From positions 14,798 to 78,797 of the forward strand of contig CAZIKY010000001.1 of NCBI GenBank assembly GCA_964540065.1: a stretch of 64,000 bases of DNA, in the 5' to 3' direction. This DNA is from Candidatus Woesearchaeota archaeon (GTDB lineage: Archaea; Nanobdellota; Nanobdellia; Pacearchaeales; JAHJTO01). The notes under the pieces were generated by a model. The model made no database searches and was not told where the DNA came from. It saw nothing but the letters and a program-made list of their open reading frames with translations. The position numbers and the translations under genes were made by a program. Shown here piece after piece: positions 36,377-63,966 of the stretch (the first letter of the stretch is position 1; every line of letters begins with the position of its first letter).

Positions 36377-36396
36377 CTTATTACTATTTGAATAAA

Positions 36397-38780: not shown

Positions 38781-38781
38781 T

Positions 38782-39279: not shown

Positions 39280-39281
39280 CT

Positions 39282-48093: not shown

Positions 48094-48268
48094 CCACGAT
48101 TCCCCTTATATAGTAGTTAAAAGGGGCTCATCTCTTAAATAAATACTTTTTCATTAACTGTAACTACTCTATAATGTATCATAACTTTTATATAACGCCT
48201 AAAGGCTTTATAAATAAAGGATGAATTATTAATGCAACTGGCCAGTAACTGCCGATTATTATCTTAAA

Positions 48269-48793: not shown

Positions 48794-48806
48794 GTTTTCT
48801 GTAAAA

Positions 48807-49211
48807 ATGAGATCTAAAGATGAATCAAAGAGCAGAAATGGGAACAATAACGTTTTCATTAAAATGGATCGCGAAGATGCTCTCGAATCAAGAAAGGGAC
48901 TTCTTGAGATCTCCGAATCTGCAATAAAACTCCAGCTCGTCAGCAAAAAGGTAAGAGAGGTAAGCAAGAAAGAACTCAAAGACCGGAAAGATCTTAAAAA
49001 ATCTATGAAAGAAATAGCTTCAGAGATATCAAAAATAGAAAACGATTTTCCCAACGTGGAAGATTTTGACCTTAAATCTATAAAGAAAAGTGCCCATCGT
49101 GCAAGTTTCGAGGAAGAGGGCAAAAAACCACATCATGGCGATGAGAAATTAAAAGATGAGCTTCTCGAAATCAGAAGAAAGCTCGAAGGCTTAGAAGACA
49201 TGAGAATCTAA
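48807..49211 (+). CDS. hypothetical charged/coiled-coil protein (paralog of 48269..48793)
   Basis: 134 aa, Lys/Glu-rich; shares the VF[VI]K[IM]DR... segment with the preceding gene. Confidence 0.45.
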   Translation: MRSKDESKSRNGNNNVFIKMDREDALESRKGLLEISESAIKLQLVSKKVREVSKKELKDRKDLKKSMKEIASEISKIENDFPNVEDFDLKSIKKSAHRASFEEEGKKPHHGDEKLKDELLEIRRKLEGLEDMRI

Positions 49212-49230
49212 AAGTTTAGCTCCTTTTCAC

Positions 49231-50634: not shown

Positions 50635-50698
50635 AGCTCTGGAAGATATTTAAAAGTTATTAGCCTCGCTTAAAGATATAGGAATAAGATAAATAAAC

Positions 50699-51262
50699 TT
50701 ACTTCTTCTTTTTTCTAAGATACCTTAATATTGCCCACAAGACAATTATCAAGGCAATTACAACTGCAAAGAAAGCTGTAAGATTCTCTCTTGAAGGTGC
50801 GGGCTGTTCTTGAGCAGACTTATCAACAACCCTTACTGGGAAGCTGATATCAAGTGCAGAGCCAAAAGCGATCCCATTACCACTGTCACGGGTTACAGTT
50901 CTCAAAGACAAAGTTACAGAGTATTCTGAACCAATAGGGGCATTTTCTGGAATCTCTATCAAAACTTGCGCATAATTACTTGAGCTACCAGCAGCCAGAA
51001 GATATTCTTTATTTTCCGTACTTGCAATTTCTCCACCGTTAGTTACGGAAAGCTGAACTGTGACATCTTCCTCTCCTGCGACATTCTGAAGATTTACTGG
51101 AAGGCTTAAAGATTCTCCAGGAGCTAAAAGCAAGGGATTATTTCTCGAAGGCCCTAATGAAACCCCCAGGGCGCTTGCAAATGAAGATAAACTTACTAAA
51201 ACAACAAAAGATATTGCAAGGAAGGTTATTCCCTTTTTTCCATCCATTTTATTTTGTACCAT
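50699..51262 (-). CDS. secreted protein with a C-terminal TM anchor and KKKK tail
   Basis: N-terminal signal/anchor (ITFLAISFVVLVSLSSFASA); C-terminal ...LTAFFAVVIALIIVLWAILRYLRKKKK. Confidence 0.55.
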   Translation of the reverse strand: MVQNKMDGKKGITFLAISFVVLVSLSSFASALGVSLGPSRNNPLLLAPGESLSLPVNLQNVAGEEDVTVQLSVTNGGEIASTENKEYLLAAGSSSNYAQVLIEIPENAPIGSEYSVTLSLRTVTRDSGNGIAFGSALDISFPVRVVDKSAQEQPAPSRENLTAFFAVVIALIIVLWAILRYLRKKKK

Positions 51263-51289
51263 TTTATCTTTTTATATCTTTATTTATCC

Positions 51290-52333
51290 TTAAAAAGTTG
51301 CTTTAAGTGTCCAAGCCCCTTCAGCGGAAGTGGTGTAATTCTGCCTTGGCAATGAAGGGACTAAGTTAACGCAATATCTGTTTGTAATGAATTGATTTGG
51401 ATTGCCTGCATCAGTCTGCACCTTCGGCAAAAATCCATATGAGGCAGTTGAATTGGCAGTCACTATGAAATCATAATTTATCAATTGTGTACCTTGACAT
51501 ACATTATTTAAACCAGTGGCATTTGTTTGAGCTCCGGTTGAATTGGCGGTTGCAGAGGTGAAATTACCTGCATAAAGGACAAAGCCTGTTAAGACGTTAC
51601 CTACAAGATTGGTTGAGTTCAGCTCGACTGTTAACGCTTGAGTATTTCCAGTATTGTTAATCGTGTTGTTGTTATCAGAAGTTACGTTTGCAACCCCTAC
51701 AGTCAAATTAGATAATGTAATGGATAAAGGTGCCACGGTTACTGCCGTAAGACTGTTAATAGACTGGTTCTGCGAGCTATTTTCTCCGCGAGCTCCTGCA
51801 AAAATATCCTTAGTTGTGGCATTCACTTTCCAGCTATTAGTTTCATTGCTTGCACAGTCGAAATACTGGAAAGTTACAGTGCAGGTGAAACTTAAAGTAT
51901 TCGAGGTTGCAGAAGGGACGCTTTGGTTAGTACATAAAGCTCCCCTGTTTCTTGATTCCCCATTGCAATTAGTATAAGAGACATTAAGGAAAGTTTGAGT
52001 CAGGTTGATGTCTGTAGCCCCATCAAGATCAAAGACAGTAACATTGTAGCTTCTAGAAGTTGTAGTACCCTCAGCTAGATCTATTGTAGAATTAACGTTT
52101 GAGCATGCGAGGAAACTTCCAGTGCTATTTGAACACAAAACTGTCCTTACTTCAGGAGCAGTATTCGAAGTTACAGTTGCTGTAACATTTGTCCCTGCGC
52201 TGGTTGCTCTTCCAGTAAAAAGATCGAAAAAACCTGCAGAAGCAAGTGGAGCTAAAGAAAGTGTAATTAGTATGATTCCAAGAATTAATGCTTTTTTAGA
52301 CTGCATCTTTCCCTCTTTTGATTTTATAAACAA
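51290..52333 (-). CDS. secreted sequon-rich Cys-containing protein (hypothetical)
   Basis: Signal peptide (ALILGIILITLSLAPLASA), many N-x-S/T sequons, several Cys; no C-terminal anchor. Confidence 0.5.
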   Translation of the reverse strand: MFIKSKEGKMQSKKALILGIILITLSLAPLASAGFFDLFTGRATSAGTNVTATVTSNTAPEVRTVLCSNSTGSFLACSNVNSTIDLAEGTTTSRSYNVTVFDLDGATDINLTQTFLNVSYTNCNGESRNRGALCTNQSVPSATSNTLSFTCTVTFQYFDCASNETNSWKVNATTKDIFAGARGENSSQNQSINSLTAVTVAPLSITLSNLTVGVANVTSDNNNTINNTGNTQALTVELNSTNLVGNVLTGFVLYAGNFTSATANSTGAQTNATGLNNVCQGTQLINYDFIVTANSTASYGFLPKVQTDAGNPNQFITNRYCVNLVPSLPRQNYTTSAEGAWTLKATF

Positions 52334-52400
52334 ACTGCCGGGGTTTATAAACTCTTCTTCAAAAGGTTAATGGAGCAAGAGTGGTAAATTTACTTATATC

Positions 52401-54170
52401 TTAGATTTTTTTCCTGGCCCGGACATAGACTGTATAAATATTTCTAGGATCCTTGCCCATCATCCTTGCAATCTCTGAGTTCGTAAGTCCTTTCTCTCTA
52501 AGATGCAGGATAATTGTTTCTAAGATGCTCTTTTCTCTTCCTTCAAAGACCTTCAGGGGAATCCCTAAAGATTCAGAGATCACAAGTTCAGTTCCCCTCT
52601 TACTTGCAATGTTATATTCATTCCATATAGTCCTGTCATCCCTATTCAGCAAGCTGGCTATTTCACTGAACTTCTTTCCACGATTCTCCTTTAAGTACTT
52701 AACAAGGATTTCTGCAGGGCCCAATCCCTTTGTGGAGAAGATAGAGATAGGAACAGATAATTCTTCTTCGAGAGCTTCTTGTTCCCCAGATTCTGATTCT
52801 TTAATCAAAGAAGCAATTTCTTCTACGCTTATATCAAACTTCTCCTTAAGCTCATCATTCAAATCTTTTAGGCTTATTCCATGCCTTTTCTTCAGCTCGC
52901 TTTCAAAGAAGCCTAAGTTATCTCCCTTTTCATCTTTCTTGCCTTTCTTTTTCTTTCTTCCAAGAGAGAATGCTGCAAGCAAAGTAGATATCTCAATAAA
53001 CCAAGGATTTCCATTGGTTGAGTAATCTTGTCTTTTCAAAAGAGGAACTTCTGGAATGCAATAATAGATCATTCCAAGACCTTGGCCTGCAGAATTATTG
53101 CCTCTAGCAATAAACAAGCCAGTGACATCGACATTAGTGTTATTTATCAGTCGGTCTCCAGCACATTCAACTGGAGGACTTGTACTTGTAGAATTGCTGA
53201 CGGTGAAATTTCCAGAGCTTATCGTGAAGGAAGAATCTATGCTTCCAACAAGATCAATTGCTTTCACCTTTACTGCGGTGAAATTTACATTTCCAGTATT
53301 GTTCACCGTGGTGAAATTATTAGCAGTCGAATTTATCGCGCTGCTGTTGATTGTCCACTCAATTCTTGAAGGAGAGATAGTCATTGCAGTAAGAGAATTG
53401 TATGTGAAGTTTGTGCTAGAATTGTATCCAGTATTTCCTTGAATATCGCTCACAGAAACATTTACGATCCATGTTCCAGGAGCATCAAAGTACCACATAT
53501 TCACTGAACAGGAGAAATTAACTCTGTTGACATCAATGCTCCCCTCACTAGTGCAGCTTCCAGTTCGAGTGGTCTCTCCTCCCATGCTGAATCTTGCAAT
53601 CGCGCTTTGAGCATCCAAGTCTATGTCGTCATCAAAGGCGACGAATGAGAAATTTACGGATCTGTAGGTTCCTTCTATAGGGTCAACTGCAGATATTACA
53701 CTTACCGATTCGATTATAGGGGTATTGTTCGCTAAAGCAAACCATCCAACATTCAGGCTATATGAAGTAGAAGAACCAGAGCTTCCGCCTTGCTGATAAG
53801 TTCCGGTGAACCTCGAACTGAAACTCGTGCTAAGGCTAGTGTTCTTTCCGGCAAGACCTATGTGATGAGATTCTACCGCATAGGAAGAGGATCCGGAAAC
53901 ATTGAAGTTGCTCCCCCCAGCAACCAATCCAGTTATATCAAAAGATCCAAACTCGACAAAAGAAATCAAAGAAATTGCCATGGAAAAAACAATGAAGATC
54001 CCGAAGGAAAGAAGGACTTTTTTCTTCCTGGAAAATTCCTTGTTCTGCTCTTCCCTTTGTTCCCTGGCCGCTTCAACTCTTTTGAAGTAGAGTTTCTGGT
54101 AATCAGAATAGGTGTCCCAATTGGTGCCGTATTTCTGACTACCAGTTTGCGCAAACTCTATCTTCCCCAT
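52401..54170 (-). CDS. membrane protein with a sequon-rich ectodomain and tandem C-terminal cytoplasmic HTH domains (putative transmembrane one-component regulator)
   Basis: N-terminal cytoplasmic segment plus TM (VLLSFGIFIVFSMAISLISFV), ~330-aa ectodomain, second hydrophobic segment (FIEISTLLAAFSLG) followed by KKKKGKK. Two HTH-like units: ...KKFSEIASLLNRDDRTIWNEYNIASKRG... and ...LTNSEIARMMGKDPRNIYTVYVRARKKI (sigma-70 region-4 / LuxR-like pattern). Confidence 0.6.
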   Translation of the reverse strand: MGKIEFAQTGSQKYGTNWDTYSDYQKLYFKRVEAAREQREEQNKEFSRKKKVLLSFGIFIVFSMAISLISFVEFGSFDITGLVAGGSNFNVSGSSSYAVESHHIGLAGKNTSLSTSFSSRFTGTYQQGGSSGSSTSYSLNVGWFALANNTPIIESVSVISAVDPIEGTYRSVNFSFVAFDDDIDLDAQSAIARFSMGGETTRTGSCTSEGSIDVNRVNFSCSVNMWYFDAPGTWIVNVSVSDIQGNTGYNSSTNFTYNSLTAMTISPSRIEWTINSSAINSTANNFTTVNNTGNVNFTAVKVKAIDLVGSIDSSFTISSGNFTVSNSTSTSPPVECAGDRLINNTNVDVTGLFIARGNNSAGQGLGMIYYCIPEVPLLKRQDYSTNGNPWFIEISTLLAAFSLGRKKKKGKKDEKGDNLGFFESELKKRHGISLKDLNDELKEKFDISVEEIASLIKESESGEQEALEEELSVPISIFSTKGLGPAEILVKYLKENRGKKFSEIASLLNRDDRTIWNEYNIASKRGTELVISESLGIPLKVFEGREKSILETIILHLREKGLTNSEIARMMGKDPRNIYTVYVRARKKI

Positions 54171-54185
54171 ATTAAGTACTTAATT

Positions 54186-54254
54186 ACTTAATATGTATGA
54201 TTTTATACTTAAAAACGTTCCTATTTTAGGTATAAAATACTTAATTTGTATGAT
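54186..54254. promoter_or_regulatory. 17-bp direct repeat TACTTAAT(A/T)TGTATGAT x2 in the promoter region of gene 52401..54170
   Basis: Copies at 54186-54202 and 54238-54254 with one mismatch, 52 bp apart, 16-84 bp upstream of the start codon at 54170. Confidence 0.4.
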
Positions 54255-54312
54255 AAATCAAATTAAGGAAAAAGTGGTTAAAATACGGGGAAAAACTAGA
54301 AAATAAGGAGTC

Positions 54313-54591
54313 TTACTGCTGCGGTTGCTGTTGAGGAAGCCTAAGGCATTCTACTGCAATAAGATTAAGGGTAACATTATTTGCAGTTAAAGGAACTGCC
54401 TGGCAAGTTGCTGCTTGCTGCATTATTTCGACAACTGCGCTTTCAAAACCATACTGGGCGCCCGCTTGGACTAAACCAAGCTGCTGCTTGCTTTTGACAT
54501 TTTTGTAAACACCATAACCGGTATAAGATAAAGATAAAACTAAAAGAACAGCTAATACCCAAATAACAACCCTTTGTTTATCTCTCTCCAT
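54313..54591 (-). CDS. small N-terminally anchored protein with Gln-rich C-terminus (hypothetical)
   Basis: 92 aa. TM VVIWVLAVLLVLSLSYTGYG; ends ...PQQQPQQ. Between the fibre gene and the HTH-membrane gene. Confidence 0.4.
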   Translation of the reverse strand: MERDKQRVVIWVLAVLLVLSLSYTGYGVYKNVKSKQQLGLVQAGAQYGFESAVVEIMQQAATCQAVPLTANNVTLNLIAVECLRLPQQQPQQ

Positions 54592-54633
54592 TTTGCTAAT
54601 TTTAGTTGTAATTACCTATTTAAATATTTTAGC

Positions 54634-57600
54634 CTAATAAAACAAACCGATAAATCTCTGCCATAATCCTCTGAAGTTAAACCCTTCACCCAATTTGCCT
54701 ACTGCTTGGCCAGTTATAGTTAAAGCAGGCTCTTCCTCTGAAGCATTTTCTGGAGCAGAGATATTTTCTTCAACAGGCTCGGTTAATGGCAATTCTTCAG
54801 TTAAATTCTCCGGGATATTTACGATCTCTTCTGTAGGCTCTTCAGGCAGGATAGTTTCATTGGAGGATTCAGGAACTTCTGAAGAAGGTTCTTCTACCGG
54901 GGCAGATGCCTCTTCCTCTTCTTTAGGTTTTTCATCCTTAGGGACTTTCTCTGGAACTTCAACTATCAGCTCCTCTTTTGGAATGTTTCCTGGCTTCTTC
55001 TGAATGCTAGGAAGGTCAGCATTGTTAAAAGATGCTTGCCAAGTAAACACAACGTTATTAGTTTGTGCTCCGCTTATTACAACAGAGAATCCGGAGGCAT
55101 CCACATCCTTCACTCCATAAAAGAAATTAGGCAAGCCAACAGGGGTAACAGTTACTATTGGAGCTTCATTAAACTTCTCTCCAAACTCAATCCTAGCCTC
55201 AACAAATCCTGGAGAGATTTCTATCTGTCCCGCAAGGCTTTGTTTAGTTCCATTCTGAAGAGAAGGCAAAGTTGAAGCAGCATTGTTTCCAGAAGATAAA
55301 GCTTCAACTTGGGCTTGAAGCTCCTGTATCGCCTTAAGAAGCTTCCATGGGTTTGGCTGCTCTACAAACAATATTCCGCCCTCTTCATGCACTAATTCGG
55401 GAGCAACTTCTTCAACTTCTTGTGCAATAACTCCTGTAGTCTCCTTCCCAGAAACCTTTACAGTATAATCTCGGACTTTTATCTTCTTGAATTCTTCAAG
55501 AGCAGATTTTGCATCTTTAATATCTCTCTTCAATTCTTCATCGGAAGAACATGAGGTAACAAGAGATCCGGAATCTGGATCCAAATCACATGTTCCGTCG
55601 CTATCCTGTATTCTTACCGTAGCTCCTTCTCCCGCTTGTTGCACATGCAGTCTCACTCCCGGAGCTGTTGTTCCTATGCCTACATTATTCGTTGTGTTTT
55701 GTATCAGCATTGCATTAGTTCCATGCGGCATAAAAACAATGTTTCCAGCATTGCCGTTATTAAGAGTCTCTATAAATGCTCCTTTATTTGTGCTATCATC
55801 TCTGAATCCAATTCTTAATACCTCAGCAGTTTGAAGTGCGCTTGCATTGAATGATATTGCAGAGTTTATTCCTCCAGCACCTCCATTCCCAATAATCCTG
55901 ACTGGAGAGTTATCGCTCGATTGTACAGTAAGTCTGTTCGAAGGAGATGTAGTTCCTATGCCTATATTACCACTGCTTCCAGGCATTATAACAAAGTCAT
56001 TCTGCAGGTTCAGATCTAGTCTTCCGCTGAGATCACGGGTAAAGTTAGAGGCCCCATTATAGAATAATAATTTGGCAGCATTAGATGAAATGGCTAAAGA
56101 CGAGCCAGCAACATCTAGGCTTCCATCAGTCTTTATAGTCGCAGTAGTAGAACGATAAAGATTTGCAGAGCTGTCAGTTCCAAACTGCAAACCATCAGTA
56201 GATGCGCTTGGGCTTCCGCCATGTATCTGAAGCAGAGCATTAGGGGAGGAGGACCCTATTCCGACATTCCCGCTGCTCTGATTCCAAAACATTATAGGGG
56301 TTGCCCCTCCATTTTTCAAAAACACAATGTTATATGTAGGAAGCATAGAATCTGGATTTAGATAGAACCATTTATTTGTTGTGTCTATTCCAAATTCTGC
56401 GGCTTGTCCACCATCAGCAGAAGTTGATAGTCTTAATATATCTCCAGATGCAGTGGTTTTGATTTCTAGCTGATCATCTGGGGTGGATGTTCCAATTCCT
56501 ACTTTCCTAGTTGCTCCTGCAACTACAAACGCAGGAGTTGAGAAATTTGTGGTTCCATTGCCCACAGAGGGAGTAATCTCGAACCCATTGTCAACATTCT
56601 GCTGCGCTCCGACCAAGAAATTATATTTTAACCCGGTATCATGGGTAAATCGAATATATCTTGCATCATTACCTGTAATTTGAACATGTGGGGCGCTGCC
56701 TTTTAATTCCAAAAGTGCACTAGGGGTAGTCGTTCCAATCCCAACATTCCCGCTGCTTGTAGCAAGCAGCGTCTGTCCTGAAACATTCAATGTTGATGTT
56801 ACAACATTTGAAGGGTTGAAAGTTTCGGCATAAAGTGTTCCTGTGATATTTGCATTTCCTGCGACATGAAGGAGCTGATTAGGGGAAGTTGTTCCTATCC
56901 CCAACTTCCCACTCGAAGTGAAGCGGAACCTCTCGTTGTTGGAGCCGTCGCTCAACTGAAGAATATAATTCGCTTCTGTCGAAGCTGTACCAGCAAATAC
57001 CTCAAGCCCAAATCCATCAGCTGCATTTGTATTCCTAACGAATGCAACTGTGCTTGCTGGCGCAGATTTTGAAACTGTAAACGTGCCGCCGACGTTCAGA
57101 TTGCTTGTGATATTAGCATCTCCGACAACGTTCAGCTTATTTGACGGTTCTGCTGTGCCTATTCCGACATCTCCAGTGTTTCTGACGAAGAAACCAGTTC
57201 CCGCTCCAGTATAGACTGCTAAACCAAATCCAGATTCAGAACCTAGATTCTCTATTGAAAGACCATAAGCACCAGAATTTGTATTAAGTATTTTTGCAGT
57301 CCAGTCTGCAACGCTTGTGTTTACAACAAATTTAAATCCAGGACTAGCTGTCCCGATTCCAACATTTCCCGCGTCTGTAATTCTAAAAAGATTAGTGTTT
57401 GAAGAAATAAGATCGATATTAAAACCGCTAGTATCTCTCTCTAGCCTTAGGGATCCGCCTTCATCTTTATCTTCTAAAGTCAAATGGCCGCTCGTAGCGT
57501 TTATATGAAAGATACCTGTAGGATTTGCAGTCCCGATCCCCACATTTCCGCTGCTTCCAGCAATTACTAAGGCATTGTCTGGGGCATTTCTTGAAACTAG

Positions 57601-60600
57601 AAGCTTATGTCCAGTGGTTCCAGCGTTGCTCCCCAGACCTACATAAGTCCCATTATTAAAGACATACCCTATATTATCCGAATCACCCAATGCATCAAGC
57701 CTTATCACTGCTGAACCAGAAGAATTTATATGCAATGGCTGTCCTGGAGAAGTAGTCCCTATTCCAACGTTTCCATTATCTTTAATCATCATTCTGACAC
57801 TTGGAGAAAGGAACCAGTAAAAGTCATTTCCGCCAGTATCATCCACATCATCTATGCCCGTAGTCCAAACATTGCTTTCACCCGAAGCAAATTGAATATA
57901 TGTGTTATTGCCCGTATTCTCTAATCTGAGAGCGTCTTGATTTGAAAAGGCGCCTTTTATGTGTAGTTTAGAGGATGGTGAGGTTGTCCCTATACCGATA
58001 TTCCCTCCATTATCTGCCAAGAAAATATTATTGGGAGTTGCTCTTATATACAAGTTCCCGCCTTGGGCGGCTATTTCTGGATCAGTTGCCCCCAAAGTTA
58101 AATTTTGAGAATTTGCAGGGTTAGTTATCTTGATCCCATAAGCATCTCCTCCCTGATTTATCGTAAGCCTATGATTTGAAAATGGAGCCGCAGTTCCAAT
58201 CCCAACCCTTCCGCTGCTTGTTGCAAGCAGCGTCTGACCAGAAACATTCAAAGTAGAAGTCACGACATTTGAAGGGTTGAAAGTTTCGGCATAAAGAGTT
58301 CCAGTAACATTAGCATTGCCAGCCACTTCTAACAATTGTGAAGGTGTTGTGGTATTTATCCCAATTTTATTTCCCTTAACATTCAGTCCGGTCCCTATCG
58401 CCTGCCCGCTTTCAACCAAAAATCCTGCTCCCCCAGAAGTTCCAATAACTAGAGCATTATTCGTTCCGTCATAGAACTGTATTCTTGGGCTTCCAGTTCC
58501 TTGGAAGTTTGCAAGGACTTCATTCCCTCCACGGACATCCAAGTTATAGGAAGGATCCGCTGTCTTAATTCCTACTTTTCCAGCGGTCTTATTCACATAA
58601 AGAGTGTTATTAAGATTAACATCCCCTACAACAGTTAAAAGATGTGAAGGAGTAGTTGTTCCGATACCGACATTGCCTGATGTATCTATTGCTAATCTAA
58701 CTGCCGAAGCATCACTGCCAACAGTGGAATCCATTATTTCGAAATTGTCATTTCTAGCCCCTACTGTTTGGATAGTGTAATGTCGGGCATCATTTTGAAT
58801 TCTGATGTGAGGATTGCTGTTTGTAAAGGAATTATTTAATAGAAGCATAGAAGCAGTTCCTAAAGCATCACTGGTTATATGGACTCTATAATCCTCTGGA
58901 CTAGTAGTCCCAATGCCTACGTTTCCCTTATAAGAAAGCGTAAGAACATCTGTAGGGCTATTAGATTGTAAGTTTCTAAATCTCACTTTTGAGTCAGTAG
59001 TATTCACATCCAAACCTATGCCAAATGCAGTATCACTATTAGTGGCTATAGAAAATAAATCATCTATCGTTCCAGCAGTATTTCCATAATCTGCCCTCAT
59101 AATCCAATATATATTTCCGCCCTGAGAAGCTGCTCCAGATACATGCAACGGCGCAGAAGGACTTGCCGTTCCGATTCCTACCCTTCCAGAAGAGTCTATC
59201 CTCATTCTTTCATTAAGCCCATTTGTTGAAAAGGTTATCGCTTTGTTGCCTGCATCAAATTCTATCGCCCCTAGATTATCAGCAGTAGAATTTCCGAATA
59301 GTATCCTTGGATCAAAAGCTGTATCATTCACCAAAAACCTTAGTACCGCATTATTGCTTGCAGTATTTTCAATCCTTAGTTCTGTTTGGTCAGTGTTTGA
59401 TAGGTGCAGTTTTGTTCCAGAGTTTGGACTTGAGGTCCCTATGCCTACATTAGTTTCAACTAACAACCCATCAGAGGGGGCAGTTGTAGAGGGGGCAAAA
59501 CCAATATTGACTCCTCCGTTAACCGTAAGCTTGCTCCCAGTAGCACTAGAAGGTCCTGCAGCGATGTCTCCGATGATCACATCTCCATCAGCCGCGCTCA
59601 TGAAAAGCGTTTGAAATCCTGAAGTTTTGAAGCTAAATCCATTCTCCTGCCATTGGTTATCCACTAAGAATGTAGAATTGATTATTGCTTGGTCTGACCT
59701 TATAATGCTTACACCATCAAGAGTAGAAGCGTTAATAGTTAATTTATTTGAAGGGTTTGTCGTTCCGATCCCAACGTTGCCATTTGTGAATAAGGTTTTA
59801 GCAGATCTTATCTTCAAGTCTGCAAATGCGTTATCTGCATCATTGACTGCATCTATGGCTACTGCCCCTAAATGATCTCTTACGACTAAATTTTCATTTG
59901 TTGCAACCTTTACGTTAAATTTATCTAAGGGAGAAGTCGTTCCAATTCCAACATTCCCGCTGCTCGTCGCAAGCAGCGTCTGCCCAGAAACATTGAGAGT
60001 GCTTGAAACCAAGCCATTTGGCGTAAAGGTCCCTGCATAAAGTGTTCCAGTTATGTTTGCATCTCCAAGGACATTTAATTTGTTTGCAGGAGTGGCAGTT
60101 CCCAAACCTATGCCTACGTTGCCGTTATCACCTATTCTTAAAATTCTCGTTCCCCCATAAGCAATCGATAGCGCATTGCCGTCAGCGATGAATGTGTAAG
60201 GAAATGCCTGCCCCGTATCATTAATAACTAATGCAGGCCCATCATTTCCAGCAATGACCAAAGCGTTGTCTGATCCTAAAACAGTTCCAGGTGCAGTAGT
60301 TCCAATGCCTACCTTGCCTGTGCTGCTGATGTGCAATCTGCTTGCTGAGGCAGATTCGTCATAAATGTCAAACTCATCATTTACAACCCTTCCCAAGCCT
60401 ACAGACCAATTTCCTAAGGGAGTGTTTATCCTTAGGCCCGCAACACTATTTCCGTCAGTCTGGGTGATTATTTGTTGTGTTGACGACCCTGAGATATGCA
60501 AATGGCTTTGGGGGTTGGTAGTTCCCATTCCCACATTACCGGACTGATCAATTGTCAAGAATTGGTCTGCCCCGCCACCATCTCCCCGTATATAGAATTT

Positions 60601-63600
60601 GAATGAATCATCGTCATCGCTTCCTATAGACCATTTTCCAGTACCATCATTATTTAAGGATAATTGCGGATCTCCAGTGCCTGCAGCATTTATCAATGTT
60701 GATACGAATCCGGATCCATTTATTTCAAGTTCTGTAGAAGGAGTTGTTGTACCGATACCGACATTCCCGGTAACATTTTGTATAAAGATTCTTGTTGAGG
60801 CACCTTCTGCGATTTCAAATGCATCTGTTGCAACATTCACTCTTGGACCTACTGCCCATTTACTCGTTCCGGCGTTGTTTAACCATCTTAGTCCTCCGCC
60901 ATAAGTTGCATCCGCATTATTTTGTATTTTCAACAAAGGAGAGCTCCCATTAACCAAAATATTCCCCCCATTTACTTCAAGTTTCTCTGAAGGGCTTGTA
61001 GTGCTTATCCCTAACTTCCCCTGATACTGAGATATCCCTGCAACAAAGGAGCCTGTCCCCGCATCATAAAGTGTCCAGCCGCCATTTGCAAGATTATTTA
61101 GGGCAAATCTTTTAGCTCCGCTTCGATTTGATACTGCGAGAGCAGTAGATCCATCATCATTGCTGATCTGAAGCCCATAGTTTATTAGGGCGGCATCTGT
61201 GCTGCCGATTGTGACTTTTCCGTTAGAGGTTGCTAAATGGGTTGTGCTTGAGGTATTTAGATTATTAGTGGAAATTGTTGATGGGCTAAACGTTCCAGCA
61301 TAAAGTGTTCCAGTTACATTTACCGACCCATCATCTCTTAAAATTAGCCTATATTGGCCATCATCGATATTGTAAAAATAAAGTCCATTTGCAGTAGAGT
61401 CGCTACCTATTGCCCAATCCTCTTGGGCAGGATCATTGAGTACAATTTCATTTTGATAATAAATTTGTCCAGTAATATTGGTGTCTCCAAGAACATTTAA
61501 TGCATTGGCGGGGTTGGCAGTCCCTATTCCCACCTTGCCGTTTCCCTGGGCAATAAAAACCGTAGATGAAGAAGCATTAATGATTTTTACTAAGTCAGTT
61601 ATGGCGGTATTTAATCCTTGTAAATACAGCCCCCTCGTGCTAGAAGTGATAATATCAAGGGTAATATCATCAGCATCCGTAGAATTTATTCTTACGCCTT
61701 TTCCATCACTAGTTTGCAGTATTTCTAATCTAGCGGAAGGGCTCGTTGTTCCAATCCCCACATTCTGACTATTGGTCTTCAAAGTGAGTGAAGCAGCGCC
61801 AAAGGATCCCCCGGCATCTTGGGTTGCAAACTCTACTCTTGAGTTAGCCTCATCAACCGCAATATCCAGGCTAGTCGGCGAGGCAGTATCTGAAGAAAAT
61901 CTTGCTCCGGCGCCAACAGAATGTAAGACTCTTAAAGGAGAAGTTGTTCCGATCCCAACATTGCCCCCAGGAGTAATCCTCATCCGCTCATTTGCTCCAC
62001 TGTTAAGACTTGCATTGGTGGCAAAAACGATTGGAGATTCTGAGCCCCCAATCAAGTTCAATCCTGCTTCTCCAATAACAAATCCGCTGTTGTTTGCGGC
62101 AAAGAAAGAATTTGTTGAAGAAAATGTCCCTAGCTGAGTGAAATAAGTTGGATTATAAACTGCGATTGCGTTTCGAGTATCGGAGCTAGAAGTAAATTTT
62201 GATAGAACACCACTAGTTGGAGTACCTACGACTTCTAACTTATTGGACGGACTCGATGTTCCCAATCCAATATCGCCATCTGATTGGATCACCAATGGAG
62301 CAGTTAACCCGGATCTTTCCAAAGCAAAACTTCCATTACCTATTCCAGTAAAGCCATCTCCAACAACTATATCCCAATATCCTGCATTAGTATTCGTATT
62401 ATTGATTCTTATCCCTGCACGATTGTCTGCCTCAGATCCTTGAACTTGTAATAAACGCGTTGGACTAGCCGTTCCTATGCCAACATTCCCCCCACTCGTC
62501 GCAAGCAATGTTTGTCCCGTAGTGTTTAAAGTGCCGGTCACTAAATTATTTGGGCTGAACGTTCCTGCATAAAGGTTTCCAGTAACGTTTGCATTACCTG
62601 CAACGTGAAGAAGTTGACTTGGAGAAGTCGTATTTATTCCGACCTTACCTGAAGAGTCAATGAAGATTCTAGAGGCTTCTGATCCTCCATCCCAAGTGTC
62701 TATCTGAAAAGATACAGCACCAGTCCCAGAATCACGGGTAATTGCCCTAAGCCTAACATTTGAAGTTCCGCTTACACTGGCACCGCCGTCTGTTAGGAAT
62801 GCAACTTGTGCTTCATTCCCTATTGCTGCTCCAGCCGGATTGTCTATTGCAAAGACTGGGCCTAAAGCGCCGCTTGCAGATTGAGAAACATGGAGTATGT
62901 CTTCGGGGCTTGTAGTCCCGATTCCCACATTCCCTGAACTATCAATCCTTAAACGAGGGATTCCAGTTGTTTGAAAATCCAAGCTATCTCCGGAGCTTGC
63001 AGGGCCAAATTGCGTATCCCCTGTACCCGTAATAATCCACTGAGAAGTGCCGGCTCCAGATCCTGTCCTTTGCAATCTTAACTCTGAATCTGCAGAATCC
63101 CTTATCAAATGCAGAAGAGCTTCAGGCCCTGAAGTTCCTATCCCGACATTTCCTCCTGCAGCATTAAAGAAAGTAGTTCCATTGCCGAGTATCTGTGCGC
63201 TGACAATTCCATTATTATACCACTGCTGAAATACCCTGTCATTGCTTCCGTCCCTTCCAATTCTAGTTAGAAGATTGGACGTAGCGGTGTTGTAAAGGGC
63301 AATGCCCCGGTCATTTGCATTTGTATAAACAGTCAAGGGATAATCTGTCGGAGTTTCTGAGCCAATTGAAACATATTGTGCCACAGTCAAGTTATTTGTA
63401 ATGTTAACATTCCCAGTAAATCTAAGATAACCATCAACAATATTATCTATCATTTCATTAAATGAAAAAGTTATCTTTTGTCCGATTGTCAGGTTTGTGT
63501 TTGGATTGATATCCTCTTCAGCTATGTCTCCCAGCGGAGCATAGAAGAACTGCCTGTCAACATTGCTGCTCGTGAGGTTTGTGAAGTTGACATCTTCGCC

Positions 63601-63966
63601 GTTTATTCTGTAATCCATCCAATATTTTTTTCCAAATTCAAGTGAAAGAGGATTAGAACCATTTTCTCCAAGCATGACATTCCACTGCCCGTTAGAAATT
63701 CCGTTTGGAAAAGTTTCGTCATAAATTAAACTGCCTCCGGATGGAGAATCGTAGACTAAAACCCTCAAACTGCCAGTCGAAAGCAGGGAGCCGGACGTCT
63801 TGTTACGGACATCCGTCCCCTGGTTCGACAAAGAGACGTTCAGAGACGCTAAGGTTAGAGAAGATGAAAATAAAATGAGGAGTAAGACTGCCGAAACCAA
63901 GACGTAGGCTTTTCGATTGAAATTAAAAAGATCATTTCTCATTTTGCAACTTCTTAAGATTTTCAA
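54634..63966 (-). CDS. giant secreted fibre protein (3110 aa): tail-fibre-like repeat protein with a C-terminal Peptidase_S74 intramolecular-chaperone domain and an H-type-lectin-like module
   Basis: N-terminal signal/anchor (AYVLVSAVLLLILFSSSLTLASL). About 33 repeats of [ST]GNVGIGT[TA][ST]P. S74 / CIMCD signature '...SSDEELKRDIKDAKSALEEFKKIKVRDYTVKVSGKETTGVIAQEVEEVAPELVHEEGGILFVEQPNPWKLLKAIQELQAQVEAL' (about 55290-55560). Then '...VEARIEFGEKFNEAPIVTVTPVGLPNFFYGVKDVDASGFSVVISGAQTNNVVFTWQAS' (H-type-lectin-like, tentative), an acidic PE-rich tail, and C-terminal ...GLWQRFIGLFY. Confidence 0.85.
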   Translation of the reverse strand: MKILRSCKMRNDLFNFNRKAYVLVSAVLLLILFSSSLTLASLNVSLSNQGTDVRNKTSGSLLSTGSLRVLVYDSPSGGSLIYDETFPNGISNGQWNVMLGENGSNPLSLEFGKKYWMDYRINGEDVNFTNLTSSNVDRQFFYAPLGDIAEEDINPNTNLTIGQKITFSFNEMIDNIVDGYLRFTGNVNITNNLTVAQYVSIGSETPTDYPLTVYTNANDRGIALYNTATSNLLTRIGRDGSNDRVFQQWYNNGIVSAQILGNGTTFFNAAGGNVGIGTSGPEALLHLIRDSADSELRLQRTGSGAGTSQWIITGTGDTQFGPASSGDSLDFQTTGIPRLRIDSSGNVGIGTTSPEDILHVSQSASGALGPVFAIDNPAGAAIGNEAQVAFLTDGGASVSGTSNVRLRAITRDSGTGAVSFQIDTWDGGSEASRIFIDSSGKVGINTTSPSQLLHVAGNANVTGNLYAGTFSPNNLVTGTLNTTGQTLLATSGGNVGIGTASPTRLLQVQGSEADNRAGIRINNTNTNAGYWDIVVGDGFTGIGNGSFALERSGLTAPLVIQSDGDIGLGTSSPSNKLEVVGTPTSGVLSKFTSSSDTRNAIAVYNPTYFTQLGTFSSTNSFFAANNSGFVIGEAGLNLIGGSESPIVFATNASLNSGANERMRITPGGNVGIGTTSPLRVLHSVGAGARFSSDTASPTSLDIAVDEANSRVEFATQDAGGSFGAASLTLKTNSQNVGIGTTSPSARLEILQTSDGKGVRINSTDADDITLDIITSSTRGLYLQGLNTAITDLVKIINASSSTVFIAQGNGKVGIGTANPANALNVLGDTNITGQIYYQNEIVLNDPAQEDWAIGSDSTANGLYFYNIDDGQYRLILRDDGSVNVTGTLYAGTFSPSTISTNNLNTSSTTHLATSNGKVTIGSTDAALINYGLQISNDDGSTALAVSNRSGAKRFALNNLANGGWTLYDAGTGSFVAGISQYQGKLGISTTSPSEKLEVNGGNILVNGSSPLLKIQNNADATYGGGLRWLNNAGTSKWAVGPRVNVATDAFEIAEGASTRIFIQNVTGNVGIGTTTPSTELEINGSGFVSTLINAAGTGDPQLSLNNDGTGKWSIGSDDDDSFKFYIRGDGGGADQFLTIDQSGNVGMGTTNPQSHLHISGSSTQQIITQTDGNSVAGLRINTPLGNWSVGLGRVVNDEFDIYDESASASRLHISSTGKVGIGTTAPGTVLGSDNALVIAGNDGPALVINDTGQAFPYTFIADGNALSIAYGGTRILRIGDNGNVGIGLGTATPANKLNVLGDANITGTLYAGTFTPNGLVSSTLNVSGQTLLATSSGNVGIGTTSPLDKFNVKVATNENLVVRDHLGAVAIDAVNDADNAFADLKIRSAKTLFTNGNVGIGTTNPSNKLTINASTLDGVSIIRSDQAIINSTFLVDNQWQENGFSFKTSGFQTLFMSAADGDVIIGDIAAGPSSATGSKLTVNGGVNIGFAPSTTAPSDGLLVETNVGIGTSSPNSGTKLHLSNTDQTELRIENTASNNAVLRFLVNDTAFDPRILFGNSTADNLGAIEFDAGNKAITFSTNGLNERMRIDSSGRVGIGTASPSAPLHVSGAASQGGNIYWIMRADYGNTAGTIDDLFSIATNSDTAFGIGLDVNTTDSKVRFRNLQSNSPTDVLTLSYKGNVGIGTTSPEDYRVHITSDALGTASMLLLNNSFTNSNPHIRIQNDARHYTIQTVGARNDNFEIMDSTVGSDASAVRLAIDTSGNVGIGTTTPSHLLTVVGDVNLNNTLYVNKTAGKVGIKTADPSYNLDVRGGNEVLANFQGTGSPRIQFYDGTNNALVIGTSGGAGFLVESGQAIGTGLNVKGNKIGINTTTPSQLLEVAGNANVTGTLYAETFNPSNVVTSTLNVSGQTLLATSSGRVGIGTAAPFSNHRLTINQGGDAYGIKITNPANSQNLTLGATDPEIAAQGGNLYIRATPNNIFLADNGGNIGIGTTSPSSKLHIKGAFSNQDALRLENTGNNTYIQFASGESNVWTTGIDDVDDTGGNDFYWFLSPSVRMMIKDNGNVGIGTTSPGQPLHINSSGSAVIRLDALGDSDNIGYVFNNGTYVGLGSNAGTTGHKLLVSRNAPDNALVIAGSSGNVGIGTANPTGIFHINATSGHLTLEDKDEGGSLRLERDTSGFNIDLISSNTNLFRITDAGNVGIGTASPGFKFVVNTSVADWTAKILNTNSGAYGLSIENLGSESGFGLAVYTGAGTGFFVRNTGDVGIGTAEPSNKLNVVGDANITSNLNVGGTFTVSKSAPASTVAFVRNTNAADGFGLEVFAGTASTEANYILQLSDGSNNERFRFTSSGKLGIGTTSPNQLLHVAGNANITGTLYAETFNPSNVVTSTLNVSGQTLLATSSGNVGIGTTTPSALLELKGSAPHVQITGNDARYIRFTHDTGLKYNFLVGAQQNVDNGFEITPSVGNGTTNFSTPAFVVAGATRKVGIGTSTPDDQLEIKTTASGDILRLSTSADGGQAAEFGIDTTNKWFYLNPDSMLPTYNIVFLKNGGATPIMFWNQSSGNVGIGSSSPNALLQIHGGSPSASTDGLQFGTDSSANLYRSTTATIKTDGSLDVAGSSLAISSNAAKLLFYNGASNFTRDLSGRLDLNLQNDFVIMPGSSGNIGIGTTSPSNRLTVQSSDNSPVRIIGNGGAGGINSAISFNASALQTAEVLRIGFRDDSTNKGAFIETLNNGNAGNIVFMPHGTNAMLIQNTTNNVGIGTTAPGVRLHVQQAGEGATVRIQDSDGTCDLDPDSGSLVTSCSSDEELKRDIKDAKSALEEFKKIKVRDYTVKVSGKETTGVIAQEVEEVAPELVHEEGGILFVEQPNPWKLLKAIQELQAQVEALSSGNNAASTLPSLQNGTKQSLAGQIEISPGFVEARIEFGEKFNEAPIVTVTPVGLPNFFYGVKDVDASGFSVVISGAQTNNVVFTWQASFNNADLPSIQKKPGNIPKEELIVEVPEKVPKDEKPKEEEEASAPVEEPSSEVPESSNETILPEEPTEEIVNIPENLTEELPLTEPVEENISAPENASEEEPALTITGQAVGKLGEGFNFRGLWQRFIGLFY
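55866..63165 (-). repeat. array of about 33 degenerate ~80-100-aa fibre repeats centred on GNVGIGTTSP, including several near-identical ~120-bp DNA copies
   Basis: Protein periodicity. DNA 56740-56860 matches 58200-58320, and 59940-60060 matches 62480-62600 (segment ...GTLYAETFNPSNVVTSTLNVSGQTLLATSSGNVGIGTTSP recurs four times). Boundaries approximate. Confidence 0.8.

What the first reader, a model, noticed from the sequence alone, without database searches (positions are those of the whole stretch)
54634..63966. Archaeal chromosomal gene for a 3110-aa phage-tail-fibre-like protein with a Peptidase_S74 auto-chaperone and an extra H-type-lectin-like module after it
Seen: ~33 'GNVGIGTTSP'-centred repeats, typical of fibrous beta-structure in tail fibres, followed by the unmistakable S74 / CIMCD motif set (SSDEELKRDI ... 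GVIAQEVEEVAPELV ... AIQELQAQVEAL). Established knowledge: in phage endosialidases and tail fibres this C-terminal domain drives trimerisation and is then auto-cleaved at the conserved Ser. Here ~330 residues follow it instead of the protein ending: a beta-rich module resembling an H-type lectin (tentative), a Pro/Glu-rich acidic tail and an aromatic C-terminus. No phage structural, integrase or terminase genes are nearby. The gene heads a cluster of host secreted proteins, so it looks like a domesticated fibre used as a cellular adhesin. If cleavage occurs, the lectin-like fragment would be released or would re-associate.
Basis: partly seen in the sequence, partly recalled or inferred. Interest (0 to 1): 0.75.

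Follow-up and report, generated by a model that had tools for sequence, protein, structure and literature searches.

The report
Archaeal surface fibre with embedded self-cleaving chaperone
An uncultivated archaeon carries a chromosomal gene for a very long, exported, phage-tail-fibre-like surface protein. Its self-cleaving folding domain is not at the very end but opens a conserved tail cassette containing a lectin-fold domain, and that cassette recurs in thousands of giant proteins of ultrasmall archaea and bacteria.

Summary
ORF 54634..63966(-) is real; the likely start is ATG 63942, giving 3102 aa. It has a Sec-type signal peptide and 34 'VGIGTxxP' capping-loop repeats. Pfam Peptidase_S74 scores 42.7 bits against a cutoff of 22, and the SDxxxK dyad is intact (S2800/K2805).

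After the S74 helix come four elements:
- a 96-aa acidic Pro/Glu stalk
- a conserved 30-aa 'ITG..G...aromatic' terminal peptide

The 54 kb downstream are archaeal housekeeping and type-IV-pilus genes. No neighbour tested against PHROGs gave a structural-protein hit. The region upstream of the gene is not visible.

The same cassette occurs in Woesearchaeota, Pacearchaeota and Nanoarchaeia MAGs, fused to unrelated passengers. The lectin-fold module matches 2473 protein clusters, mostly near the C-termini of large to giant proteins, and 79 of the best 139 have S74 directly upstream. GenBank phages and IMG/VR contain the S74 part only.

The closest known relatives are the Bdellovibrio MAT S74 fibres. 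My reading is a cellular trimeric adhesin fibre whose auto-chaperone belongs to a larger tether/lectin cassette. Cleavage, trimerisation and binding are inferred, not shown. I rate it a new variant of a known kind.

The parts
54634..63942 (-). Whole gene: 3102 codons from ATG 63942, plus the stop codon at 54634-54636. The mechanical ORF starts at TTG 63966.
   Evidence: The identical 3102-aa product is in the public collection.
63844..63942 (-). Sec-type signal peptide, aa 1-33: MRNDLFNFNRKAYVLVSAVLLLILFSSSLTLA|SL
   Evidence: Read directly from the sequence. It has a basic n-region, an 18-aa hydrophobic core and a TLA motif. Relative P0008 has the same layout. No signal-peptide predictor was available.
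63163..63843 (-). Conserved N-terminal domain (aa 34-~260) with no Pfam match. It is a candidate cell-proximal docking domain.
   Evidence: 14 homologues, including a protein named Candidatus Pacearchaeota, at E 3e-58 to 3e-20. It is shared with the 628-aa relative P0008. Pfam finds nothing.
55591..63162 (-). Fibre shaft, aa 261-2784: 34 'VGIGTxxP...L' capping-loop modules. A roughly 57-aa landmark segment recurs 4-5 times, every 421-844 aa.
   Evidence: phmmer hits the Bdellovibrio fibres 8OND (4.7e-7) and 8OJN (1.9e-6). PHROG tail-fibre families phrog_9942 (6e-100) and phrog_18345 (6e-94) match. The motif equals the MAT capping-loop consensus V-G-G/N-pi-x-x-P-x-x-x-L (PMC10769870).
55528..55590 (-). 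The only two cysteines of the protein (C2785, C2798), followed by the catalytic SDxxxK motif (S2800-D2801...K2805). The predicted self-cleavage site is S2800|D2801.
   Evidence: Both Cys are at least 90% conserved in 46 relatives. Among the 203 S74 domains gathered, at non-gap positions S is 190/190, D 179/190 and K 194/194.
55297..55545 (-). Peptidase_S74 intramolecular chaperone domain plus its C-terminal helix (aa 2800-2882).
   Evidence: Pfam PF13884, 42.7/46.2 bits against a cutoff of 22. AF2 pLDDT is mostly 80-94 over this span, with a helix at residues 183-206 of the 420-aa model. Weak PDB sequence hits to a phage tail fibre (8JOV) and MYRF (7DC3).
55015..55245 (-). Post-S74 beta-sandwich module with an H-type-lectin / phage RBP-tip fold (aa 2900-2976).
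54727..55014 (-). Acidic Pro/Glu-rich low-complexity stalk (aa 2977-3072).
   Evidence: 29 D+E against 7 K+R, 16 Pro, pI 4.05. AF2 pLDDT is below 50. Relatives have an equivalent acidic, Asn-rich or Ser/Thr-rich segment.
54637..54726 (-). Conserved C-terminal peptide, LTITGQAVGKLGEGFNFRGLWQRFIGLFY. The family consensus is P-I-T-G-G-V-I-G-T-N-x-x-x-x-[IF]-F-x-[KR]-F-[VI]-x-[FW]-[IV]-x-x-L-F.
   Evidence: Found at the C-terminus of 19 distinct family proteins, 313-5336 aa long. It also occurs in L002, L003 and L004. No NCBIfam sorting-signal model matches. An unbiased metagenome scan finds the ITGGVIGTN core next to transmembrane segments in other proteins.
54313..54591 (-). 92-aa single-TM protein gene 42 nt downstream of the stop codon. 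It is a possible partner gene.
   Evidence: Homologues lie directly downstream of fibre genes in L004 (46% identity, E 1e-17) and L003 (58%, E 1e-17). None is present in L091, L092 or L094.

Best explanation
The gene encodes a cellular, Sec-exported, trimeric beta-helical surface fibre of an uncultivated, probably DPANN-type archaeon. Each mature chain is about 285 kDa. It is built like the Bdellovibrio MAT fibres and like phage tail fibres.

Shown:
- a signal peptide
- a family-conserved N-terminal domain
- 34 capping-loop shaft modules
- an S74 auto-chaperone with an intact Ser-Lys dyad
- a conserved C-terminal cassette downstream of it: coiled-coil helix, H-type-lectin-fold beta-sandwich, acidic Pro/Glu stalk, and a 30-aa 'ITG..G..aromatic' peptide
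- the same cassette on unrelated passengers in other DPANN genomes
- a chromosomal, non-viral context

Inferred:
1. After export, three chains are brought together at their C-termini. The terminal peptide holds them at the envelope, and the acidic stalk acts as a spacer.
2. S74 nucleates the trimer and templates folding of the shaft.
3. Ser2800/Lys2805 then cut the chain after S2800. This separates the fibre from a 33-kDa fragment that stays behind as a stalked trimeric lectin-fold head, or is shed.
4. The fibre stays on the cell through its conserved N-terminal domain and serves to bind partner or host cells or surfaces.
For: - Domain calls: S74 at 42.7 bits against a cutoff of 22. SDxxxK is present and invariant at non-gap positions in the 203 S74 domains gathered.
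- Shaft: the repeats match solved MAT fibres 8OND and 8OJN and PHROG tail-fibre families. The capping-loop consensus and S74 self-cleavage were shown experimentally for Bd3182 (PMC10769870).
- Export: an N-terminal signal peptide is present here and in P0008. This fits a surface protein, not a virion part assembled in the cytoplasm.
- Context: archaeal housekeeping and pilus genes, with no PHROG structural hits among the seven neighbours tested. Relatives in Woesearchaeota, Pacearchaeota and Nanoarchaeia MAGs sit next to tRNA synthetases, a GTPase and ribosomal proteins.
- The cassette is a unit. The same S74, module, linker and ITGG peptide follow FG-GAP + LVIVD repeats in L003, and the same S74, module and linker (no ITGG peptide) follow other repeats in L005. 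The module sits a median 34 aa after S74 in 79 of 139 top representatives.
- The module has the fold of trimeric lectins and phage RBP tips. That fits its position on a trimeric S74 helix.
- Other surface proteins in this window use C-terminal anchors. This makes a C-terminal tether plausible.
Against: - No experiment or multimer model was run, so trimerisation and cleavage are unproven here.
- The C-terminal peptide is too short and too polar for a canonical TM helix (mean hydrophobicity 0.24, hydrophobic moment 0.35). It matches no known sorting signal. Its tether role is therefore a guess.
- If the C-terminus is the only anchor, cleavage would release the fibre rather than leave it attached.
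- A lectin-fold head after the cleavage site could equally mean the protein is not cleaved and the head is the business end.
- The phylum of the source organism is not established. All window proteins looked up are singletons without names.
Confidence: 0.55

Rival explanations
1. Uncleaved tip-lectin model. S74 acts only as a trimerisation clamp. The lectin-fold head stays covalently attached and is the distal receptor-binding tip. The acidic tail and terminal peptide modulate or cap it.
For: The module's nearest structural neighbours are C-terminal receptor-binding or trimerisation domains of tailspikes, pyocin fibres and H-type lectins. In MAT fibres the C-terminus is the distal, adhesive end (PMC10769870).
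Against: The catalytic Ser, Asp and Lys are strictly kept in this protein and across the 203 relatives gathered, which is hard to explain without catalysis. A 96-aa disordered acidic tail plus a conserved hydrophobic peptide beyond a 'tip' is not what known fibre tips look like.
Confidence: 0.2
2. MYRF-like release model. The C-terminal peptide is the only envelope anchor. Trimerisation-dependent S74 cleavage sheds the whole fibre (or, in relatives, the propeller passengers) from the cell as a secreted trimer. A stalked lectin is left behind.
For: S74 followed by a membrane-anchoring region and release of the N-terminal trimer is the established logic of MYRF. A weak sequence hit to MYRF ICA (7DC3) includes the upstream 'GRVGINT' stalk. 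The cassette carries diverse passengers. The ITGGVIGTN core sits next to true TM segments in other proteins.
Against: The terminal peptide of this protein is not a predicted TM. The family-conserved N-terminal domain suggests a second attachment point. A 285-kDa-per-chain fibre released into the medium has no obvious use.
Confidence: 0.15
3. Ordinary viral, prophage or tailocin (eCIS) tail-fibre gene that happens to lie in the chromosome.
For: Strong PHROG tail-fibre matches for the shaft and S74. 129 GenBank phages and more than 415 IMG/VR contigs encode related S74 domains. The region upstream of the gene is unseen.
Against: 54 kb downstream is cellular, and the seven neighbours tested gave no PHROG structural hit. 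The protein has a Sec-type signal peptide. Phage and IMG/VR matches stop at the end of S74 and are at most 49% identical. The module profile finds nothing in IMG/VR. Relatives also sit among housekeeping genes.
Confidence: 0.05
4. Assembly artefact or decaying pseudogene inflated by repeat mis-joins.
For: A second assembly of the same run breaks inside the repeat region.
Against: The 9.3-kb frame is uninterrupted. There are no near-identical long DNA repeats. The last 2.2 kb of the gene and the genes downstream are reproduced exactly by the independent assembly. Relatives of 2180-5336 aa have the same layout.
Confidence: 0.03

Closest known systems
Bdellovibrio bacteriovorus MAT (mosaic adhesive trimer) fibres, S74 subgroup (e.g. 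Bd3182; structures 8OND, 8OJN; Caulton et al. 2024, PMC10769870)
   Same: Both are cellular, signal-peptide-bearing surface fibres. Both have a conserved N-terminal domain, long beta-helical shafts with the V-G-G/N-pi-x-x-P-x-x-x-L capping loop, and an S74 auto-chaperone with SDxxxK. Direct sequence hits link the shaft modules. Both organisms live by contact with other cells; for the archaeon this is inferred.
   Different: The host is archaeal. The protein is three times longer (3102 aa against about 1000). In MAT fibres the S74 is terminal. Here it is followed by a lectin-fold module, an acidic stalk and a conserved terminal peptide. No similarity of the N-terminal domains has been shown.
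Phage C-terminal intramolecular chaperone domains (K1F endosialidase CIMCD, 3GW6; T5 pb1 L-shaped tail fibre, 4UW8)
   Same: Same Pfam family (PF13884). Same Ser-Lys dyad five residues apart. Same position directly after a triple-beta-helix stalk.
   Different: Phage versions end the protein, and the proteins lack signal peptides. Phage sequence matches here stop at the S74 helix.
MYRF (myelin regulatory factor) ICA domain, 7DC3 / 5H5P
   Same: S74 is internal and followed by further regions. Cleavage depends on trimerisation and separates an N-terminal trimer from a C-terminal membrane-associated part. The upstream 'GRVGINT..P' stalk motif is shared.
   Different: MYRF is a eukaryotic ER membrane transcription factor with a bona fide TM helix. 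Here the passenger is extracellular and the terminal peptide is not a canonical TM.
Phage tailspikes and pyocin fibres with C-terminal lectin-like beta-sandwiches (Pam1 tailspike 7EEA, LKA1 gp49 4RU4, R2 pyocin fibre 6CL6), and H-type lectins (HPA 2CCV, SLL-2 3WMP, discoidin I 2W94)
   Different: In those proteins the domain belongs to the mature protein and no S74 precedes it. Sequence similarity to PF09458 is below threshold, and no PDB sequence hit was found. Sugar-binding residues were not assessed.
eCIS / tailocin tail fibres carrying S74 or H-lectin receptor-binding domains (PMC12923769)
   Same: The same domain vocabulary (S74, H-lectin / SLL lectins) is used at fibre ends.
   Different: Those domains are described as alternative modules, not in tandem. 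No sheath, tube or baseplate genes are present here.

Membership tests
Peptidase_S74 / CIMCD (PF13884) | Profile match above Pfam's gathering score | tested here: met
   42.7 bits (full protein) and 46.2 bits (last 420 aa) against a cutoff of 22, covering the whole model 1-58.
Peptidase_S74 / CIMCD (PF13884) | Catalytic SDxxxK (Ser nucleophile, Lys five residues downstream) | tested here: met
   S2800-D-E-E-L-K2805. At non-gap positions in the 203 S74 domains gathered, S is 190/190 and K 194/194. Motif definition from PMC10769870.
Peptidase_S74 / CIMCD (PF13884) | Directly preceded by a triple-beta-helix-type stalk | tested here: met
   The last VGIGTTAP capping loop is at aa 2754, 46 aa before the cleavage Ser. 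The shaft matches solved beta-helical MAT fibres. This is a sequence-level inference only.
Peptidase_S74 / CIMCD (PF13884) | Domain forms the extreme C-terminus of the protein | tested here: not met
   220 aa follow the S74 helix. Most bacterial and phage relatives have 4-40 trailing residues.
Peptidase_S74 / CIMCD (PF13884) | Trimerisation-dependent autoproteolysis and release | not testable with these tools
   Only monomer AF2 models were possible. Protein expression or a multimer model is needed.
H-type lectin (PF09458) | Profile match above Pfam's gathering score (24 bits) | tested here: not met
   12.0 bits on the 420-aa tail and 17.2 bits on the module alone. 10 of 11 family members hit, best E 5e-5. 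CPR relatives score 17-19 bits. The PDB profile search finds no lectin.
H-type lectin (PF09458) | Six-stranded beta-sandwich fold of HPA, discoidin and SLL-2 | tested here: met
H-type lectin (PF09458) | Inter-protomer GalNAc/Gal binding site residues and trimeric assembly | not tested
   No residue-level structural alignment or multimer model was available.
Bdellovibrio-type MAT fibre superfamily | Signal peptide plus shaft of beta-helix modules with the capping-loop motif | tested here: met
Bdellovibrio-type MAT fibre superfamily | The conserved ~130-aa MAT N-terminal domain | tested here: inconclusive
   A conserved N-terminal domain exists. It gave no Pfam hit, and the whole-protein PDB search gave no hit in that region. 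No MAT N-terminal sequence was available for comparison.
Phage, prophage or eCIS tail fibre | Embedded among virion or contractile-tail structural genes | tested here: not met
   None in the 54 kb downstream. The upstream side is not visible.
Known archaeal or bacterial C-terminal sorting signals (PGF-CTERM, PEF-CTERM, GlyGly-CTERM, etc.) | Match to an NCBIfam/TIGRFAM sorting-signal model; motif + TM helix + basic cluster | tested here: not met
   No NCBIfam hit at E<1 other than noise. There is no 20-aa hydrophobic helix and no terminal basic cluster.

The most novel reading that the evidence does not exclude
The S74, lectin-fold head, acidic stalk and ITGG-peptide unit is an undescribed, self-cleaving 'assemble, tether and release' cassette. 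It is shared by ultrasmall symbionts of both domains (DPANN archaea and CPR/Patescibacteria). It works for any passenger: beta-helix fibres, FG-GAP/LVIVD propellers, LamG. In logic it resembles MYRF, and in role an autotransporter. The terminal peptide is a new juxtamembrane anchoring or sorting signal. Cleavage leaves a stalked trimeric lectin on the cell, so one gene yields two surface adhesins.
Probability: 0.2. Interest if true: 0.8.

Novelty: new variant of a known kind. Interest (0 to 1): 0.6.

Why it matters
DPANN archaea and CPR bacteria are thought to live attached to other cells, yet the molecules that make contact are almost unknown. This gene gives a concrete candidate with a testable mechanism. 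It is a fibre probably as long as the cell itself, built on the same plan that Bdellovibrio uses to recognise prey and phages use to recognise hosts.

The S74 auto-chaperone is here only the first part of a conserved C-terminal cassette. The lectin-fold module of that cassette matches 2473 protein clusters (at 50% identity), and the best matches lie near the C-termini of proteins of up to about 5500 aa. Current family models miss the module, so these proteins are annotated 'hypothetical' or 'tail fiber domain-containing'.

Defining the cassette would improve annotation of many giant genes. It would add an archaeal case to the phage / Bdellovibrio / MYRF series of S74 uses. It would also supply a handle (S2800A, the 33-kDa fragment, the lectin head) for biochemical work on organisms that cannot be cultured.

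Tried and rejected
- Scanning GTDB genome contigs with the whole protein found nothing, so the source genome and the region upstream of the gene could not be retrieved. An exact look-up of the gene's contig also failed. Neighbouring genes led only to short Logan contigs.
- The word-indexed homologue search with the module profile returned only two fragments. The exhaustive representative search was needed instead.
- I guessed that CPR proteins carrying the module without S74 use a Peptidase_G2 auto-chaperone, because of a 'DLAE.F' motif. Pfam finds no such domain in them. Only a neighbouring Woesearchaeota ORF ending in 'ADYAEWFE' gives a sub-threshold G2 hit (19.9 bits against 25). This stays a lead.
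- A PDB sequence search with the 66-sequence module profile gave no lectin or tailspike hit. The H-lectin link therefore rests on fold and on sub-threshold Pfam scores.
- The afdb50 library was unavailable.
- NCBIfam gave nothing for the C-terminal peptide.
- I tested whether the ITGG peptide is a general sorting signal. Within the loci in hand it occurs only on cassette proteins. An unbiased metagenome scan for ITGGVIGTN gave 11 loci with mixed contexts, roughly three of them probably chance. The result is inconclusive.
- Literature searches for S74 with archaea or DPANN, and for H-type lectin with intramolecular chaperone, found no description of this architecture.
- The organism's phylum could not be named. 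All window proteins looked up are unnamed singletons.
Full report
**1. The observation**

The ORF listing gives a single open frame 54634..63966 on the minus strand, 3110 codons from a TTG. Eight codons in lies an ATG at 63942. The resulting 3102-aa sequence is exactly what the public protein collection holds, from an NCBI contig of 210,746 bp. I number from that ATG.

- The N-terminus, MRNDLFNFNRK-AYVLVSAVLLLILFSSSL-TLA|SL, reads as a Sec-type signal peptide.
- I count 34 'V/I-G-I-G-T-x-x-P' motifs, spaced 32-109 aa apart (median 75). Twenty-one match a strict pattern that never occurred in 200 shuffles.
- A landmark segment of about 57 aa ('NVTGTLYA.TF.P...V..TLN..GQTLLATSSG') recurs 4-5 times at 68-89% DNA identity. 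The shaft therefore grew by old block duplications and holds no long perfect repeats.
- An independent Logan assembly of run SRR5011273 reproduces window 46934-56833 without a mismatch, so the last 732 aa are secure. That assembly breaks in the repeats.

**2. Domain content**

*S74.* Pfam finds Peptidase_S74 at aa 2800-2852, covering the full model, at 42.7 bits (cutoff 22). The catalytic SDxxxK motif, as defined in PMC10769870, is S2800-D-E-E-L-K2805. In the 203 S74 domains I gathered, Ser and Lys are invariant wherever aligned. The only two cysteines of the protein, C2785 and C2798, sit just before it and are conserved in relatives.

[quoted passage not shown] The repeat is the MAT 'capping loop' V-G-G/N-pi-x-x-P-x-x-x-L. 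PHROGs assigns the shaft to tail-fibre families (6e-100 and 6e-94).

*The region after S74:*
- A helix follows directly (residues 183-206 of the 420-aa model, pLDDT about 82-90).
- A 77-aa module occupies aa 2900-2976.
- A 96-aa acidic Pro/Glu stretch follows (pI 4.05, pLDDT below 50).
- A 30-aa terminal peptide ends the protein.

*The module.* It is a six-strand beta-sandwich (module-only model, pLDDT 88.2).
- Foldseek on the longer model puts H-type lectins on top.
- BFVD returns 25 phage proteins at E<=1e-3, many named 'H-type lectin domain', tail fibre or 'gp53-like C-terminal domain'.
- At sequence level PF09458 is consistently found but below threshold: 12-17 bits here, 10 of 11 relatives, best E 5e-5. 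A PDB profile search finds no lectin.

Membership of the Pfam family is not established, and sugar-binding residues were not assessed.

**3. Context**

The 54 kb downstream of the gene encode:
- a 92-aa TM protein and four further secreted or membrane proteins
- TFIIE-alpha, a rhomboid, ribosomal L15e, a DHH phosphoesterase, RuBisCO and ProRS
- a type-IV-pilus/archaellum-like locus (T2SSE ATPase, two T2SSF proteins, a class-III-signal pilin, KaiC-like ATPases)
- a histidine kinase with response regulator, and a HEPN/nucleotidyltransferase pair
- a second giant surface protein of 6856 aa

None of the seven neighbours tested against PHROGs gives a structural-protein hit. The window ends 34 nt upstream of the ORF, and I could not retrieve the rest of the contig. 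That is the main gap.

**4. Relatives**

The C-terminal 420 aa retrieve 181 proteins. Eleven of the 120 listed share the whole tail: Cys loop, S74, helix, module, low-complexity linker and, in most, a terminal 'P-I-T-G-G-V-I-G-T-N....F..F' peptide.

- P0008 (628 aa) also shares the signal peptide and N-terminal domain. It is a short version of the same protein.
- A further 14 proteins, including one named Candidatus Pacearchaeota, share the N-terminal domain.
- In GTDB genomes the cassette occurs in Woesearchaeota, Pacearchaeota, Nanoarchaeia and an unclassified archaeon.
- The passenger differs between genomes. In L003 it is LVIVD plus eight FG-GAP repeats. In L005 it is another repeat type. 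In P0147 it is a LamG domain.
- Neighbours of these genes are tRNA synthetases, a GTPase and ribosomal proteins.

An exhaustive profile search with the module alone finds 2473 clusters (50% identity) at E<=1e-3 and 598 at E<=1e-10. In the best 150, the module lies a median 101 aa before the C-terminus of proteins of up to 5544 aa. Of the best 139 new hits:
- 79 have S74 a median 34 aa upstream
- 19 are N-terminally truncated
- 41 have another, unassigned domain instead; the three of these looked up that carry names are all Patescibacteria

By contrast, 129 GenBank phages and more than 415 IMG/VR contigs match only the S74 part, at no more than 49% identity. Those matches end with or just after the S74 helix (query residue about 200-238 of 420), short of covering the module. 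The module profile finds nothing in IMG/VR.

Many bacterial S74 proteins in the hit list end 4-40 aa after S74, the classical arrangement. Some CPR proteins carry other post-S74 extensions.

**5. How it most likely works**

Established knowledge: S74 domains nucleate trimers, template the upstream triple beta-helix, and then cut themselves off with a Ser-Lys dyad. This is known for phage K1F and T5, and was demonstrated for the cellular fibre Bd3182 (PMC10769870). In MYRF the same domain is internal and releases a trimer from a membrane anchor.

The sequence here shows an exported protein with that machinery intact, a conserved N-terminal domain, and a conserved cassette after S74. I infer the following sequence of events:
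1. The chains are exported through Sec.
2. The terminal peptide and the acidic stalk keep the last-emerging C-termini together at the envelope.
3. S74 trimerises them and the shaft folds.
4. The chain is cut after S2800.

This would give a mature fibre of about 285 kDa per chain, held by its N-terminal domain, and a 33-kDa fragment that forms a stalked, trimeric, lectin-fold head. By proportion to the ~550-A model of the 922-aa Bd3182, the fibre would be on the order of 0.15-0.2 micrometres long. That length is my extrapolation. An adhesin role follows from the analogy with MAT fibres and from the contact-dependent lifestyle of DPANN archaea. It is not shown.

The rivals are:
- no cleavage, with the lectin head as the tip
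- MYRF-like shedding of the whole fibre
- a viral or tailocin fibre
- an assembly artefact

The strict conservation of S, D and K argues against the first. The conserved N-terminal domain argues, weakly, against the second. The signal peptide, the context and the absence of the cassette from viral collections argue against the third. The independent assembly and full-length relatives argue against the fourth.

**6. The terminal peptide**

Nineteen distinct family proteins end in the ITGG peptide. It matches no NCBIfam sorting signal and is not a canonical TM.

An unbiased scan of JGI metagenomes for ITGGVIGTN returned 11 loci:
- one S74 cassette
- three 555-aa ORFs in which an acidic linker, the motif and a hydrophobic helix lie mid-protein
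- one protein where the motif directly precedes a true C-terminal TM helix and a basic tail
- one where the motif follows an N-terminal TM
- two small proteins with the motif between two TMs
- about three probable chance hits

The motif thus tends to sit next to membrane segments. This fits a juxtamembrane or anchoring role, but the sample is too small to prove it.

**7. Comparison and novelty**

The protein is a member of Peptidase_S74 by profile and catalytic motif, but it fails the 'terminal domain' feature. It works like, and is sequence-related to, the MAT S74 fibres. It is archaeal, three times longer, and carries the extra cassette.

The lectin-fold module and S74 are both known fibre-end modules; in eCIS fibres they appear as alternatives (PMC12923769). 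I found no description of them in tandem, of S74 fibres in DPANN archaea, or of the ITGG peptide. I rate it a new variant of a known kind, of moderate to high interest. The interest lies mainly in how widespread the cassette is among giant proteins of ultrasmall archaea and bacteria, and in how directly the mechanism can be tested.

Noticed in passing
window 54313-54591 (-); L004 1676-1930; L003 1789-1962: A 92-aa protein (one TM, then a conserved ~55-aa 'QQGAQYGYE..A...V.QQA..CQ.VPL......T.N.IAV.CL' domain with two Cys) is encoded right after the giant gene. Homologues sit right after a Pacearchaeota S74-cassette gene and after a Woesearchaeota fibre-like ORF (E ~1e-17). They are absent after three other family genes. 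It may be a fibre partner or assembly factor.
   Followed up: partly
L003 3-1784 (+): A Woesearchaeota ORF next to the S74-cassette gene ends in '...ADYAEWFEKENE...'. It gives a sub-threshold Peptidase_G2 (IMC autoproteolytic domain) hit of 19.9 bits against a cutoff of 25. DPANN fibres may use both known classes of auto-chaperone.
   Followed up: partly
proteins P0147, P0168, P0169, P0189, P0192, P0201, P0222, P0254, P0264: In 41 of the 139 top hits the lectin-fold module follows not S74 but an unassigned ~200-aa domain ('...DLAE.F...GD.L.SS...G.AMK...'). The named examples are giant Patescibacteria proteins of up to 5544 aa. Pfam finds nothing in that domain.
   Followed up: partly
window 5424-25994 (-): A second giant gene (6856 aa). 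It has an N-terminal TM, dozens of ~100-aa Ig-like repeats dense in N-x-S/T sequons, a Gly run, a Cys-rich 'C..W.C..WS.C.....R.C.D.N.CGT' motif, a TM helix and a ~600-aa basic cytoplasmic tail.
   Followed up: no
window 49231-50634 (-); window 5424-25994 (-); L091 3760-4731; L092 3097-3921: The same Gly-run + Cys-rich 'C..W.C..W..C....R.C...N.CGT' motif, followed by a TM anchor, recurs in otherwise different secreted proteins. These include the genes immediately downstream of two S74-cassette homologues. It looks like a shared membrane-proximal module of DPANN surface proteins.
   Followed up: no
window 52401-54170 (-): A 589-aa protein with a cytoplasmic N-terminus, a TM, a ~350-aa Asn/Ser/Thr-rich extracellular part, a second TM and a cytoplasmic C-terminal HTH (Sigma70_r4_2, 31.3 bits). 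It may be a membrane-spanning one-component regulator next to the fibre gene.
   Followed up: no
L097 / L100 / L105; L099; L102; L095 / L103: The core 'ITGGVIGTN' of the cassette's terminal peptide also occurs in unrelated ORFs, always beside hydrophobic segments. It is found mid-protein after an acidic linker, directly before a C-terminal TM and basic tail, after an N-terminal TM, and between two TMs.
   Followed up: partly
window 32088-40026 (-) and 28832-30116 (-): An archaeal type-IV-pilus/archaellum-like locus: T2SSE ATPase, two T2SSF membrane proteins, a class-III-signal pilin, several small unassigned ORFs and KaiC-like ATPases. It is flanked by a histidine kinase and a response regulator, about 15 kb from the fibre gene.
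   Followed up: no
window 26407-27524 (+): A HEPN domain protein and a nucleotidyltransferase (Polbeta/NTP_transf_2) are encoded by overlapping genes. This is a typical HEPN-MNT toxin-antitoxin pair.
   Followed up: no
window 46682-47329 (-): A rhomboid-family intramembrane protease gene (108 bits) lies about 7 kb from the fibre gene. This matters only if the terminal 'TGG' peptide turns out to be a processed sorting signal. No link has been shown.
   Followed up: no
L003 7775-11089; L005 8192-10978; L094 2774-5887: The S74 cassette is fused to non-fibrous passengers, such as LVIVD + FG-GAP propeller repeats and 'W.SVTYGNG.FVAV' repeats. Only one or two capping loops precede S74 in these proteins. 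This is unexpected for a chaperone thought to template triple beta-helices. In L094 the gene upstream of the cassette gene is a LamG protein.
   Followed up: partly
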